DNA of 64,000 nt from Magallana gigas (lineage: Eukaryota), in the NCBI RefSeq assembly GCF_963853765.1, contig NC_088856.1, positions 35,712,001 to 35,776,000 on the forward strand. The letters are read 5' to 3'. The first letter of the stretch is position 1. Every line of letters starts with the position of its first letter. This document shows, piece by piece, positions 19,001-25,000 of this stretch. Made by a program: the position numbers.

Positions 19001-22000
19001 GTAAGCAATACAATCCACATGAAACAGTTAACAAATCTAAATTAAAAACCAAACTCATTTAACAAAGAACAAAATTTGGTTTCACTCCATATATTTTCAA
19101 AACTGCACAATGACTTTAAAAAAAAAAAAATTGTCGTTTTAATTAATCTGAAATCTCTATGGGGTTTACCCATGAAACAAGAGCCGCACAACTAGACAAA
19201 GGGAAGTCGTATATTTATGAAAATCTCGGGGACATGACAATAATCTACCCAGCCCGGCGTGACTAAAACTGAGGCCTATCCAACACAATGTAACCAATGG
19301 AGGATCACTAACGCACTAGCTCTATACACTTGTGTGAATGACACCAACTGGAAAACGGCAAACTGCACTTACAGGCATGGCATTGAACAATTAACAAATT
19401 CCTCTCCAAAGAAACAATGGAGGCTCTTTTTTTTGTTTTTTTTATCTTCTTCTGTTGTGTAGATATATTGTCTTCTTCAATGAGCCATTCACTGATTAAA
19501 TTTCTAGATGTTCATCCATTTCTTGGAGACAAAGACAAAGATTTTCAGTACTGATTGTTCAAACAGGGGATTCTATTCCCTAACCATTATAGTCCTCTCT
19601 CAAAAATCCTTCGAAATCTGTCTATCGAGGCTTTTGAATCCTTATTTTTTTGGGGTTGAACAAAAAATAAATAGTCAAAGTCCCAGTGTTTTCAAACACA
19701 TCTGATTCTGTTCACACTAAAAAAAATGAGCTATATCTTTCCTACTCAGTAGACAATGTACAAATATAACATAGCCAAACACTTCGATGAAAAAAAAAAG
19801 ACATTGAAGAAACCCATTCAAAAAATGACAGATCGACGTGATTAGGTTCAATAACCGCCAAGCATCGCTCCTTGTAATTAAAAAAAAAAGATCATTTAAA
19901 TTTCATGAAATGTAGCTCTATAGGATGGGGTGAGTAATGAAATCCATTTTTTCATACAAAAGAATTTCTATGCACTTGAATTTTGCTTAAATATGCATGC
20001 TTTTTTTTATTAAAGGTTTGCAATAAGGCACTTTGATGCTTTTCTACCATTTTTTGTATATGTCTGAACAAACTCTTCAAAAATGCAATCAATATACCTG
20101 TATGCTCTACTATAAATTACAACTGATGCCTATTCCTTTGAAGGGTGAATATTGAAAGAGATTCCTTTGAACATTGACCTTTGACAACCAAAGCTTAGAG
20201 AAAACACACACAATATTTATCCAATGTTTTTAGTAGTAAACTTCCATATGATGGTAAATAACTATATGAAAACAATGAAATGATTTTTTTTGAAAAGTTG
20301 CTCATCTCATTTCTCCTGATTTTTCATACATAGCAGAAAAAAATTGCTAAAAGGGAATTGACCATTATGCTTTACAATAACATGATGATTCTCCCTCTAT
20401 TAATTCCCCCCACATTTCCTGTGGTAACATTCAGATGCTGTGCCACTCAGACAAACTGATTTCAAATGGTGCTAGAACTTGATTTCATCTATTCACCACA
20501 TGAGACCAGGCTGTCAGCCAGTAGCGTGTCTCAGTTGTTTCCCTTTGCTGTCGTTTCCCCCTGCAGTTTCTTCCCTTGTTCCATTACTTATCTCCCTTGG
20601 CCATCTAAAAGAATCGTTCTAAGGCAAAGTCAATTTAATAGTTCGAGAAAGTTTATTCTTAGGCAGCAAAATTCAAAAGAGGTTTCATAATAGGTAACAA
20701 TTAAGCCAACTTTGTATTTCCTTTTCTAGATCAAATCCAAATTCTAAGTATCTTATACACTTGGAATTTCCTCATAAAAAAATGAAACCCCCCCCCAAAA
20801 GAATAAAAAAAAAAAATAGAAAAAAAAGAAAAGAAAAAAAAAATGAACAAACACAAAAAACCCTCATTTTTCAGATAGAATTGACACAATTATTTTACCT
20901 CTAGAGTTTGCTTACAAGTTCAAGAGGAATTCTACCTCCCCATTCATCATACAGTGTACTTTGACTGCCCTACTGTTAAGACAATGGCCTGTGTTGGTGT
21001 ACAGCCCATCAAGGTCCATTGGCCCTGGAATGGATAGCCCCCTCAACTTCAGTGAAACCGACCATTAGATGATGACTACTTGGTAATCACACATGAAGGA
21101 ATGCTATCTTCTGGCCATATCAGAGCTAGGTCTGATCAATTTTTTATTGTTTTCTCTCTTCCCCACAGTTAATGTCCTATTGATTCGTAGAAAAAACATT
21201 TGTACATCAAAGGGCTATTGTAAGAAACAGGTCTTACTTGTCCATTCCAAACTACAGTTTCTAACCAGTGAAAGGCATGACTTCATTTCTCCATTTATGC
21301 ACTTTAAAAAAAACCCCATCTTTCTTTAAAAAAAACAAAAAACTGTATTATGAAGAAAACCTTAAAAATCAAACTTCTAACACCAGAAAATGTTGTCTTT
21401 TTCTAGCATCTGCAAATTGACAAAATTTAAACTTAATTTTTGTTCTTTTTCGCTAACCTCCAAATTAGAATAATCAAATTCAAATGGATAAAACATTGCA
21501 AAACAGAGGTCCATGCAGAGACAAAACCATTACAAGACAAAATTGATAATCAACATGGACTACACTGTCCTTTAGTAGTGGTATAGACATTTGTCTTGGA
21601 ATCTAATTAAGATTCTCTTTGGGACATCAAACATAATGCAATCAATGAATCAGTCTGCATACAAGTGTTATTCTGCAACTCTTTTGCCTCAACATGTGCC
21701 AGACAGACAAATATAGCTGCAAATATACAAATAAGCCCATTAGCATCAGGCCTTACGTTTTCTGAACCAGGAAATCACAAAACCAGGAAAACCCACAAAC
21801 CAGGAATTGCAGGAAATGAAAGCACCTGAAAAACCACACAACATGGAACCTGATTTCAGAAAGAACATGGCCAAATGGTTTCAATTCATTCATATTTTTC
21901 TACTACTTCCCTCCCAGTATTTTCTCATTTACTGTATCTCCACATGGGATACTTTTTTTTATTACCTGAAGAAGTTGAGTTTATCCGAATTAAACCTAGC

Positions 22001-25000
22001 CAAGTGACTGAATCAATGGATGCACTCAATGATGGAATCAATGCCGGGGCCCGCTGCAGAATCCCCAAGTCTCCGTGAATCTACTTCATAATTGATTAAT
22101 TTCAGAAAATATTCAACGACAAGTTAATATGAAATGCATACTGTGTTACATATACTCAATGCGCAGATCCCATTTCCCCATTACACATTAAACAAAAGCG
22201 ACATCGCTATCAAAACCTGAACAAAGATTTCAAAGCAAATACCTGCAACATCATGAGGCCTTAATTTTTCTGCCAATAATTTGTTGTACTCGATTTCAAT
22301 GAGATAGGGATCCTAAAAGTCTGTACACCCTTGGAAGAAGAGCCCATGAATGAACTGTCAGTTCCACACCAGACAGACGATTTTCGGAGGCACGCGGTCC
22401 AAATTTAATGAGCCTGGTATCTATGTTTAGGAAGAGAATCAGTCCTCTTTGAGATCGATAAAAAACAAGCAATGCGAATCAATATATAGATGTAGCTCCC
22501 AGCCCAATAAATTGTTAATGTACAGGAGAAAGCAGTGAGACTCTAGCATTCACAACTTCTAGTCTGCACCCATGGTAGGCGTCCCAAGGAGGGTAAAACA
22601 CAGGTGCCGTTCTACTGATAAATCTACCCCCAAAAAGTAGCCACTTTGTTCATTCACAGATTCCTGCCTCTCAAATTTGCAGTAGAAAGAAAATTATATT
22701 AGCATCAATCCATACCTTTCATGTACTTGTGTACATGCCAACGGCTCAAAATAGCGTCAATAATTTGCGTAGACTGTACATAGACCACGGAAGACTCGAT
22801 TGTCAATCACTCCTGCACTGACCCAGTCTCTCTTGAATTCCAATTGATTGACCACGCTTTGTTCTCACAATATACAGTCTTGGTGACCATCGCTCACAAT
22901 GGGCATAACGATAGAGGTATTATCTGTCTCTATTGCTCCCTCAATCATCTTTTCCAGCTCTAGCCACCGTATATATACATATATGCTATATTAGGGTGAT
23001 TCAATAGTCTGTAGGTTCCAACAGGCCAAGATTACATCAACTTGTGTGTTTCTAACTACCACATAAGGTCAGACTACTCCTATTCGAGATGTCAAACTCT
23101 CCATGGAACAATTCAATCCTATTTTTGGAGAGTCGTCTCTAGCATTCCAAATCGTCTCTAGCATTCCAAATCTACAGCAAACTGCAGCCTTTACAACAAT
23201 CCAATGCAATGCCTAATTAACACGCAAGATCTTGAATTCTGCAATATCCATCTCTTCGTCCTGCATGAGTTTCAAAAACAAAGGCCTCAGTGGAGCATTA
23301 TCTTTGATATGAATGATTTAAATGCTAGAGCCACTGAGATGTACATATATCCTATATTGGTCCTTTTATCAGGAGCATCTGGGAGGCATTAATAATTTAA
23401 ACAATTATTCAGGCATCGCCTTCTATGTTCTATTCATCACGTTTTACACAAAGGAACTTAAAAAAAAAAAATTCCAAAAAAGATCAATGTTTCAAGTATA
23501 GATGCATCTACCAACTAATGGATTTCTCATAAAGGGATACTGACAAATCCATTCAAAGCCTATAAATTATCAATTTGTGTTGCTTTCATGTTTCAAAATT
23601 CATGAACAAAATTTTCTATTTGGGCTTAAACTTGGAATGTAAGAAACATTTTGTAACGCTTGATCTAATTATGCTGTCAAAAATAAGAAAAAGCTACAAA
23701 ATTTTTGTCGGGAACAACTGTTATCAACTTCCAACAATCTCATGTACACACTTGGAACAATTAAAGCACCATGCCAAGCAATAAAACTAGAGTTATCTTT
23801 CCCTGAAGCTGGGTAATGACCAAGGACTACAACCAATTACAGCGAGCAAAAGATCGATGCAGAGCCTTTGAACTTTCACCAGGGATCCCAACCTCCAAGG
23901 TTGTTGACCCAAGGCATTGCAAAAAATAAAGCAAAATAATGGTCCCCCAAACACATCCTCTCACCATCATCTATATTGGACAGTCAGTTTAATGCCAAAC
24001 ACTGAGATTCTAAACCCTCACTCTGCCAAAATCTAGACTAACTATTGAGATGGTGTGTAAAATTTGAGTTCCTTTTAAAAAGCAGAATAGAAGTTAAGAA
24101 ACTCAAAGTGAGGTCAGAATTACAAAGTCTTCTTATTGGTGGCAGGATTAAAAAAAAATTAAAATTCCGAAGAAGATAAAACAAAAAAAATCAAAAAAAA
24201 ACTTCCCCCAAAACCACTCTGTTTTGTCTTGCAGGCAGGCAACCAACAGTCCCCTCAATTTTCCAAGGTCCTTGCATTTGATCTAAAGAGCTTGATTAAA
24301 AGTCCCATTTGTGAATTAGAACTTTAGAAACCAATCTAGAAAGTTTTAAAGAAATTCTAATAAAAACAAAAATGCTACATAGTAATTAATTTTGTATATC
24401 CCCAGTTAAAATAGAATTCAAACTTCAATGAAAAGCAAGATCGTTCAGAAAAACTGATGTCTAGAAAAACATTCTATGCCTTAGTTACCTCAACCAATCA
24501 AAAGGGCACCTATCTAAGACAAATATCAAGGCCACATTTCAATGTCCAAATCCATGCTTTGTCATTCCACTAAAAGATGCACTGATTTCAAATGGTGCTA
24601 GACAGTATTTTCACTCCAAAATCTATTCACCACTTGAAACCAGGGACCTACAGCAGATTCTCATTTCCATGGAAACAGCTCACATGACCTGCAATCAAAA
24701 CCCCCTCTAAATCCATCCTAATTTTGTGCCTACAGTAAAACTTACTGGTAAAATGAAGCCCTGTGAACCATAAATTCTTAGTTTCAACACAAACCAAGAT
24801 TCTCAGCTCCAAACCAGAAATCTTTACGATTTGAGGGAGAAAAGACGTAACTTCCTGTTTTCACAAAATTTACTTCTATGTGAGTTCTTCATCATCAGCA
24901 AGTTATACTGTATACATGTAACCCAGATAAGATTTGTATCTTCCCAAGATTTCCTTCAATCCGAGTTTTATGTAAGTGAGTCTTGCTGTTAGTAACCCAG

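What the first reader, a model, noticed from the sequence alone, without database searches (positions are those of the whole stretch)
20450..24650. Two miR-29 hairpins inside intron 3 of an uncharacterised coding gene
Two paralogous pre-miR-29 hairpins lie ~4.1 kb apart, in the same (minus) orientation as the host, within intron 18630-25015. They share the seed and differ only at the 3' end (…CAGUUU vs …CAGUGC) and in loop length. They are invisible in the ORF track. As I recall, vertebrate miR-29 clusters sit in lncRNA hosts, so residence in a protein-coding intron and possible co-expression with this gene are notable.
Basis: partly seen in the sequence, partly recalled or inferred. Interest (0 to 1): 0.68.

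Follow-up and report, generated by a model that had tools for sequence, protein, structure and literature searches.

The report
Two intronic miR-29 microRNA hairpins
Two genuine copies of the ancient miR-29 microRNA lie in one intron of a protein-coding gene and point the same way as that gene, which is an ordinary arrangement for animal microRNAs.

Summary
Rfam's mir-29 model (RF00074, gathering score 46.7) matches the minus strand at 20450-20515 (57.4 bits) and 24576-24648 (55.8 bits). Both fold better than shuffles on the minus strand only (z -3.55 and -4.60).

The downstream 22-mer is identical to published Pinctada and Biomphalaria miR-29. The upstream 22-mer is identical to a whitefly "miR-285-3p".

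Both hairpins lie in a 6,386-nt GT..AG intron (25015-18630). Its flanking exons read in frame into each other. They fit an eight-exon, phase-compatible minus-strand model.

The host protein matches no Pfam family. A language-model lead to C7orf57/FCAP33 (score 0.88) stays unconfirmed.

Most likely this is a canonical intronic Mir-29 pair cropped by the Microprocessor from the host pre-mRNA. No expression data could be consulted.

A paired mir-29 cluster is already described. So are Mir-29 relatives in coding introns of insects. Novelty is therefore low. The organism could not be determined.

The parts
24576..24648 (-). Upstream (5') pre-miR-29 hairpin, '29b/285-type'
   Evidence: Rfam RF00074 55.8 bits, gathering score 46.7; MFE z -4.60
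24579..24600 (-). Inferred mature 3p arm of the upstream hairpin (22 nt, ends ...CAGTGC)
   Evidence: 20-mer match with 5' end at 24600; 19 of 22 nt paired; the 22-mer is identical to a sequenced whitefly small RNA named miR-285-3p
24622..24644 (-). Inferred 5p (star) arm of the upstream hairpin
   Evidence: Derived from the MFE pairing assuming 2-nt overhangs; inference, no reads
20450..20515 (-). Downstream (3') pre-miR-29 hairpin, '29a-type'
   Evidence: Rfam RF00074 57.4 bits; MFE z -3.55
20453..20474 (-). Inferred mature 3p arm of the downstream hairpin (22 nt, ends ...CAGTTT)
   Evidence: [quoted passage not shown]
20488..20510 (-). Inferred 5p (star) arm of the downstream hairpin
   Evidence: Derived from the MFE pairing; inference
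18630..25015 (-). Host intron 3 (6,386 nt), GT at 25015-25014 and AG at 18631-18630
   Evidence: no coding-like AG..GT segment inside it on the minus strand; no repeat shared with the rest of the window (0 HSPs)
25016..25180 (-). Host exon 3 (165 nt, phase 0-0, coiled-coil-like K/E/Q-rich)
   Evidence: codon log-odds 0.631 per codon against an intron null with maximum 0.115 in 3000 windows
18557..18629 (-). Host exon 4 (73 nt, phase 0-1), continues the K/E/Q-rich reading frame of exon 3
   Evidence: log-odds 0.095 per codon, just under the 99th percentile (0.125) of the intron null
47520..47602 (-). Candidate host exon 1 (ATG, 83 nt, donor GTAAGT, ends in phase 2)
   Evidence: Best ATG-start candidate, score 13.0; weakest part of the model
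44668..44851 (-). Candidate host exon 2 (184 nt, Ser-rich)
   Evidence: Only strong coding-like AG..GT segment between 25181 and 51800 (score 31.5); its phases fit exons 1 and 3; its model frame is not the best-scoring frame under the independent codon model
15283..15621 (-). Host exon 5 (339 nt, phase 1-1). An in-frame alternative donor at 15373 also fits exon 7 directly.
12719..12813 (-). Host exon 6 (95 nt, phase 1-0)
11709..11918 (-). Host exon 7 (210 nt, phase 0-0)
10859..11405 (-). Host exon 8 with the stop codon. This exon gave the C7orf57/DUF5524 lead.

Best explanation
This is a canonical intronic cluster of two Mir-29 family microRNA genes. One is a 29b/285-type hairpin 367 nt into the intron. 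The other is a 29a-type hairpin 4.1 kb further on. Both lie in the sense orientation inside intron 3 of a protein-coding gene on the minus strand.

The likely mechanism runs as follows. RNA polymerase II transcribes the host pre-mRNA. The Microprocessor (Drosha with its partner) crops each hairpin out of the intron. Dicer trims the loop. The 3p arm, which carries the seed AGCACCA, is loaded into Argonaute and represses mRNAs with matching sites. Output of the two miRNAs would then follow host transcription, at least in part.

Shown here: family membership, strand, hairpin anatomy, identity of the mature arms to published small RNAs, and the position between two in-frame exons with canonical splice sites.

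Inferred: processing, arm choice, co-transcription with the host, and the full host gene model.
For: Family and strand. There are two full-length RF00074 matches above the gathering score on the minus strand, and their mirror images fall below it. Folding z-scores are -3.55 and -4.60 on the minus strand, against -1.40 and -0.49 on the plus strand.

Hairpin anatomy. Both have a pri-miRNA layout: a roughly 22-nt duplex, 18 and 19 of 22 mature nucleotides paired, further pairing below the inferred Drosha cut, and loops of 13 and 21 nt.

Selection on the arms. Similarity between the two copies is confined to the arms. The 3p block is 85% identical over 33 nt and the 5p block is 92% over 24 nt, while loops and flanks do not align. 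This is what old paralogues kept by selection on the arms would show.

Published matches. The downstream 22-mer equals Pm-miR-29a, which was validated by miR-RACE in Pinctada (abstract and passages). It also equals bgl-miR-29-3p and bgl-miR-29a-3p from small-RNA sequencing in Biomphalaria (passages). The upstream 22-mer equals a sequenced Bemisia small RNA.

Host. All 7 of 7 acceptors are pyrimidine-rich CAG and all 7 of 7 donors are GT[AG]. All junction phases fit. Exons 2 and 6 were found by a scan that had not been trained on them. With training on PAK and BicD only, the model frame scores best in 7 of 8 exons, and exon 3 lies far outside the intron null.
Against: No small-RNA or RNA-seq data could be consulted, so neither processing nor the exon 3-exon 4 junction has been observed.

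In Biomphalaria the miR-29 locus is annotated 'Intergenic'. Intronic residence is therefore either not general in molluscs or is missed by that annotation.

Intron 2 of the model is 19.5 kb, and exon 1 scores weakly.

Exon 2's model frame is not the best-scoring frame under the independent codon model.

Exon 4 reaches only about the 98th-99th percentile of the intron null.

A CNNC motif downstream of the hairpin is present only for the downstream copy.

Four AATAAA motifs lie on the minus strand within the intron. That is uninformative in AT-rich sequence, but it does not exclude internal transcript ends.
Confidence: 0.75

Rival explanations
1. The hairpins are real Mir-29 genes, but they are transcribed from their own promoter nested inside the intron. 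Their expression would then be uncoupled from the host.
For: Nothing in the sequence excludes it. The two hairpins are 4.1 kb apart, wider than the under-1,000-nt amphioxus pair, which leaves room for internal control regions. It is established general knowledge that a sizeable minority of intronic miRNAs have their own promoters (recalled, not from a call).
Against: The hairpins have the same orientation as the host. The first hairpin begins only 367 nt after the 5' splice site. No feature suggesting an internal start was found, but no suitable tool exists here. The only promoter scan on hand is bacterial and showed no enrichment (23 sites against 25.6 expected).
Confidence: 0.18
2. The flanking 'exons' are not one coding gene. 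They may be separate genes or chance open frames. The cluster would then really be intergenic or in a non-coding host, as in vertebrates and as annotated in Biomphalaria.
For: Biomphalaria miR-29 is listed as intergenic. No exon of the model matches a Pfam family. The Atlas gave no usable hit for exon 5. Exon 4 is short and only borderline under the codon model.
Against: Exon 3 scores 0.631 per codon, against a maximum of 0.115 in 3000 intron windows. Exons 3 and 4 continue one K/E/Q-rich frame across canonical GT..AG sites. Eight successive segments are phase-compatible and all have consensus splice sites.
Confidence: 0.06
3. The hairpins are decayed or unexpressed relics that merely resemble mir-29.
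For: No expression data were seen.
Against: Both keep an intact 22-nt 3p arm identical to expressed small RNAs of other species. Both keep stable hairpins and diverge only outside the arms. That is the signature of purifying selection.
Confidence: 0.01

Closest known systems
Mir-29 family (Rfam RF00074), and the paired mir-29 cluster of chordates (Mir-29-P1/P2; human miR-29b2~29c in the lncRNA C1orf132/MIR29B2CHG; the amphioxus pair)
   Same: Two same-strand paralogues with the same seed and a conserved 3p arm. 'Mir-29-P1/P2' is listed as an ancient cluster (one figure-legend passage). Amphioxus has one cluster of two paralogues.
   Different: The spacing is 4.1 kb here, against under 1,000 nt in amphioxus. 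The host here looks protein-coding, whereas the human and mouse 29b2/c host is a lncRNA between CD34 and CD46.
Lophotrochozoan miR-29: Pm-miR-29a (Pinctada), bgl-miR-29a/29b (Biomphalaria), cte-miR-29a (Capitella)
   Same: The downstream hairpin's 22-mer is letter-for-letter the published mature sequence. Two precursors are also reported in Biomphalaria. miR-29 is listed among the families conserved in molluscs.
   Different: The Biomphalaria locus is annotated intergenic. No paper that I saw gives a host gene or describes the pair's layout in a mollusc.
Insect Mir-29 relatives: mir-285 (intergenic), mir-995 (intron of cdc2c), mir-998 (intron of E2f, with mir-11)
   Same: These are Mir-29-seed hairpins residing in introns of protein-coding genes. 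The upstream hairpin's 22-mer equals a whitefly small RNA named miR-285-3p.
   Different: The insect intronic copies are single, insect-specific transposed copies in other host genes. Here both paralogues share one intron of an unrelated host.
Mirtrons
   Same: Both are intron-borne miRNA precursors.
   Different: The hairpin ends are 367 nt and 1,820 nt from the splice sites, so splicing cannot define them. These are Drosha-type hairpins with extended lower stems.

Membership tests
Mir-29 microRNA family (RF00074) | Covariance-model score at or above the curated gathering score, over the full length of the model | tested here: met
   57.4 and 55.8 bits against 46.7; model positions 1-70 of 70
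Mir-29 microRNA family (RF00074) | Seed AGCACCA at positions 2-8 of the 3p arm | tested here: met
   Both 3p arms begin TAGCACCA
Mir-29 microRNA family (RF00074) | Stable hairpin on the coding strand, with a roughly 22-nt duplex and a lower stem | tested here: met
   z -3.55 and -4.60; 18 and 19 of 22 nt paired, with further pairing below the inferred cut. This is a prediction, not a probing experiment.
Mir-29 microRNA family (RF00074) | Mature sequence matches experimentally sequenced family members | tested here: met
   22 of 22 identical to Pm-miR-29a and bgl-miR-29, and to Bemisia miR-285-3p
Mir-29 microRNA family (RF00074) | Reads from both arms with uniform 5' ends and 2-nt overhangs in this organism | not testable with these tools
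   No small-RNA data are available; the organism is unknown
Host-transcribed intronic miRNA | Lies between the GT and AG of an intron whose flanking exons belong to one gene, on the same strand | tested here: met
   sequence-level evidence only
Host-transcribed intronic miRNA | Made from the host's primary transcript (shared start site, correlated expression) | not testable with these tools
   No transcript data
Mirtron | Hairpin ends coincide with the splice sites | tested here: not met
   367 nt and 1,820 nt away
C7orf57/FCAP33 (Pfam DUF5524, PF17662) as the host protein's family | Match to PF17662 at or above its gathering score | tested here: not met
   No Pfam hit to PF17662 for any exon, even at E up to 10. 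Exons were searched singly, which lowers sensitivity.
C7orf57/FCAP33 (Pfam DUF5524, PF17662) as the host protein's family | DH repeats D-[W/Y]-[Y/M]-[I/V/Y]-H, as defined in the preprint read | tested here: not met
   0 strict matches in six frames. There is 1 relaxed in-frame match (DYFLH, 15355-15341) among 3 relaxed matches in the window, against 0.77 expected.
C7orf57/FCAP33 (Pfam DUF5524, PF17662) as the host protein's family | Language-model or structural likeness to family clusters | tested here: inconclusive
   Exon 8: the top three clusters are all C7orf57/DUF5524 at 0.86-0.88 with 166-172 shared features, below the 0.9 that the tool treats as more than a lead. Exon 5: no usable hit. 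The exon 8 model has mean pLDDT 51.8, too poor for a fold search.

The most novel reading that the evidence does not exclude
The paired Mir-29 cluster (29b-type followed by 29a-type) was hosted ancestrally in an intron of a protein-coding gene related to the ciliary microtubule-associated protein C7orf57/FCAP33. This window would preserve that state, and the lncRNA hosts of vertebrates would be a later replacement. miR-29 output would then have been tied originally to a cilia-related transcription programme.
Probability: 0.05. Interest if true: 0.5.

Novelty: new member of a known kind. Interest (0 to 1): 0.2.

Why it matters
It matters little beyond annotation. It adds two confident miRNA genes that ORF-based annotation cannot see. 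It also gives a usable eight-exon model for an unannotated-looking host gene.

The one point of wider interest is comparative. If the same host intron carries the Mir-29 pair in other lophotrochozoans, it would date the host association. It would also give a contrast with the vertebrate lncRNA hosts. That needs annotated invertebrate genomes, which were not on hand.

Tried and rejected
- **Third mir-29 copy or other miRNAs near the pair.** An E-value scan of 8000-30000 gave only the two hairpins, their mirror images, and sub-threshold mir-297/466-type hits on a (GT)n(AT)n microsatellite at 9976-10051. I rejected those hits as low-complexity artefacts.
- **Host identity through Pfam, one exon at a time.** None of the host exons matched a family above its cut-off.
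- **Host identity through PDB sequence search, exon 8.** 0 hits at E up to 10.
- **ESM Atlas.** Exon 8 gave the C7orf57 lead only. Exon 5 gave nothing usable (one search had failed because the machine was busy, and I repeated the same request).
- **AlphaFold model of exon 8 alone.** Mean pLDDT was 51.8 and pTM 0.16, so I ran no fold search.
- **DH-repeat motif from the C7orf57 preprint.** No strict match.
- **Mirtron reading.** Rejected on distances to the splice sites.
- **Self-regulation of the host or its neighbours.** The 7-mer seed site occurs 7 times in the window against 6.53 expected. None lies in a host exon, and one lies in a PAK coding exon.
- **Transposon origin of the intron.** 0 BLAST HSPs between intron 3 and the rest of the window.
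- **Bacterial promoter and terminator scan of 18000-26000.** No enrichment, and not applicable to an animal gene.
- **tRNAs.** 0 found.
- **Naming the species from the 5p-arm sequences in the literature.** 0 papers.
- **Papers on the genomic context of mollusc miR-29.** Searches returned thousands of papers, of which I saw only the top 20, 15 and 15 listings. None described a host gene. A search for C7orf57 together with miR-29 gave 1 paper, unrelated by its title and abstract.
- **Two papers opened without use.** PMC8307416 and PMC7488030, where the only hit was in the reference list.
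Full report
**What is there.** The window has no N and is 34.5% G+C, with CpG observed/expected of 0.51. A gathering-threshold Rfam scan of all 64 kb returned exactly two hits. Both are to mir-29 (RF00074) and both are on the minus strand: 20450-20515 (57.4 bits, E 7.3e-10) and 24576-24648 (55.8 bits, E 2e-09). The curated cut-off is 46.7, and each hit covers model positions 1-70 of 70. The plus-strand mirror images reach only 33.7 and 36.6 bits.

With flanks, the minus strands fold at -33.8 and -36.2 kcal/mol (z -3.55 and -4.60). Of 200 shuffles each, 1 and 0 fold as well. 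The plus strands give z -1.40 and -0.49. The shared 20-mer of the 3p arm occurs exactly twice, with 5' ends at 20474 and 24600. The chance expectation is 0.01.

**Anatomy.** In both MFE structures the 22-nt 3p arm is largely paired: 18 of 22 nt downstream and 19 of 22 nt upstream. A 23-nt 5p partner can be inferred at 20510-20488 and at 24644-24622. Pairing continues below the inferred Drosha cut, as expected of a pri-miRNA. A CNNC motif follows only the downstream hairpin.

Similarity between the two copies is confined to the arms. The 3p block is 33 nt at 85% identity and the 5p block is 24 nt at 92%. Loops and flanks do not align convincingly. This is the pattern of old paralogues held by selection on the arms, not of a recent segmental duplication. 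No third copy lies in 8000-30000 at E up to 1.

**Identity with published small RNAs.**
- The downstream 22-mer is identical to Pm-miR-29a of the pearl oyster, whose mature sequence was validated by miR-RACE (PMC4691125, abstract and passages). The primer is used again in PMC12560909.
- It is also identical to bgl-miR-29-3p and bgl-miR-29a-3p of Biomphalaria. The latter is listed with 0 mismatches to cte-miR-29a (PMC12261956 and PMC7328434, table passages).
- The upstream 22-mer is identical to a sequenced whitefly small RNA listed as miR-285-3p, and its first 21 nt are listed there as miR-29b (PMC3603954, table passage).
- By published naming, the 5' hairpin is therefore 29b/285-like and the 3' hairpin is 29a-like. 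As I recall, vertebrate clusters also place the 29b hairpin first. I did not test that.

**The host.** I searched the spliced model exon by exon and left out the step of joining the exons into one protein.

The intron begins with GT at 25015 and ends with AG at 18630. The exon before it (25180-25016, 55 codons) and the exon after it (18629-18557) both read K/E/Q-rich sequence in one continuous frame. Downstream I found four further exons:
- 15621-15283. It has an alternative in-frame donor at 15373, and a read-through to a stop near 15270.
- 12813-12719.
- 11918-11709.
- 11405-10859, which carries the stop codon.

Upstream, the only strong coding-like AG..GT segment between 25181 and 51800 is 44851-44668. 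The best ATG-start exon whose phase fits it is 47602-47520.

In this eight-exon model, 7 of 7 acceptors are pyrimidine-rich CAG, 7 of 7 donors are GT[AG], and all phases agree. The miRNA intron is intron 3 and is 6,386 nt long.

I also trained a crude codon model on the PAK and BicD exons alone. Under it the model frame scores best in 7 of 8 exons; exon 2 is the exception. Exon 3 scores 0.631 per codon, against an intron null with mean -0.469 and maximum 0.115 in 3000 windows. Exon 4 scores 0.095, just under the null's 99th percentile of 0.125 (the script stopped after these lines). No coding-like segment lies inside intron 3. The intron shares no repeat with the rest of the window.

The weak points are the 19.5-kb intron 2, exon 1, and the absence of any transcript evidence.

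**What the host encodes.** No host exon matches a Pfam family above its cut-off, and exon 8 has no PDB relative. The ESM Atlas placed exon 8 nearest three clusters named C7orf57 that carry DUF5524. Scores were 0.86-0.88 with 166-172 shared features, which the tool rates as a lead only. Exon 5 gave nothing usable.

A 2026 preprint (10.64898/2026.10.27.762278, abstract and passages) reports human C7orf57/FCAP33 as a candidate ciliary microtubule-associated protein with 'DH repeats'. The strict repeat pattern is absent from all six frames of the window. One relaxed match (DYFLH) lies in frame in exon 5. A single-sequence AlphaFold model of exon 8 is mostly unstructured (mean pLDDT 51.8), so I made no fold search. 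I therefore do not file the host under C7orf57, and it stays uncharacterised.

**Surroundings.** A BicD exon lies at 4129-4392 on the minus strand (PDB 6pse_A, BICD2, E 3.6e-17). A group-I PAK lies at about 51862-57706 on the minus strand. It has a kinase domain and two separate exons that each encode a p21-binding domain.

I do not take this contig for human, for three reasons:
- The mature forms match mollusc, annelid and insect entries.
- The cluster sits in a coding intron beside PAK and BicD, not between CD34 and CD46.
- The base composition is AT-rich.

The species could not be named with the tools open to me.

**How it most likely works.** The pair is a host-transcribed intronic miRNA cluster. 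The host pre-mRNA carries both hairpins. The Microprocessor crops them, Dicer trims them, and the 3p arms act through the seed AGCACCA. The first hairpin starts 367 nt after the 5' splice site. The second ends 1,820 nt before the 3' splice site, which rules out a mirtron.

Shown: family, strand, fold, arm conservation, intronic position. Inferred: processing, arm use, co-expression. A nested promoter is the main rival and cannot be tested here.

**Comparison and novelty.**
- A two-paralogue mir-29 cluster is the usual layout. 'Mir-29-P1/P2' is listed among ancient clusters (bioRxiv 2021.09.01.458616, one legend passage). Amphioxus has one such pair within 1,000 nt (PMC5054118).
- Mohammed et al. 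(PMC4238352, passages) state that duplication is rarer in protostomes, with Capitella as an example. [quoted passage not shown]
- The human and mouse 29b2/c host is a lncRNA (PMC8268529, abstract and passages).
- miR-29 is counted among families conserved in molluscs (PMC9679248, one passage) and is lost in some flatworms (PMC3840308, one passage).

The kind is therefore known, and a coding-intron home for this family is not unprecedented. What may be unreported is this particular host. I found no paper that gives a host gene for a mollusc miR-29. However, my searches showed me only the top listings of thousands of papers, and the Biomphalaria table calls its locus intergenic.

**Left unchecked.**
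The one genome collection still open holds only bacteria and archaea. So I could examine no homologue of the host, no synteny with other molluscs, and no orthologous hairpin.
The supplemental tables and figures of PMC4238352 (outgroup loci) and of PMC7328434 (precursor sequences and coordinates) may bear on whether the pair and its context are already recorded.
- miRBase and MirGeneDB could not be consulted.

Noticed in passing
window 56645-57064 (-) and 57497-57706 (-): The PAK gene has two separate exons that each encode the start of a p21-Rho-binding (CRIB) domain (PF00786, E 7.4e-15 and 2.1e-08). This looks like a pair of alternative or duplicated N-terminal exons.
   Followed up: partly
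window 4129-4392 (-): This is the first coding exon of a Bicaudal-D homologue. It matches the BICD2 N-terminal coiled coil in PDB 6pse_A at E 3.6e-17, although Pfam gave nothing above its cut-offs.
   Followed up: partly
window 8924-9470: A 180-bp tandem repeat with 3.0 copies at 94% identity lies just downstream of the host gene's stop codon. It produces a spurious 208-aa open frame at 8887-9513 on the minus strand.
   Followed up: partly
window 9976-10051: A (GT)n(AT)n microsatellite gives sub-threshold 'mir-297/466/1277' Rfam hits of 24.8-45.5 bits, against gathering scores of 80-90. They are false positives.
   Followed up: yes
window 15373 and 15283-15270 (-): Host exon 5 has two phase-compatible donors. 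The one at 15373 joins exon 7 directly, and the one at 15283 joins through exon 6. There is also a read-through stop near 15270, so alternative isoforms are possible.
   Followed up: partly
window 6486-6766: A short island of up to 66% G+C ends in a C-run, an A-run and an (AT)n tract. It may be an interspersed element. It has no Rfam match.
   Followed up: no
window 25181-44667: The 19.5-kb stretch taken as host intron 2 holds no convincing coding-like exon on the minus strand; the best score is 8.5. Either the intron is unusually long for this locus, or exons 1-2 belong to another transcript.
   Followed up: partly
window about 244-389, 1875-2020, 48430-48500: Long (GA)n/(TC)n runs give open frames of repeated RE or SL residues.
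   Followed up: no
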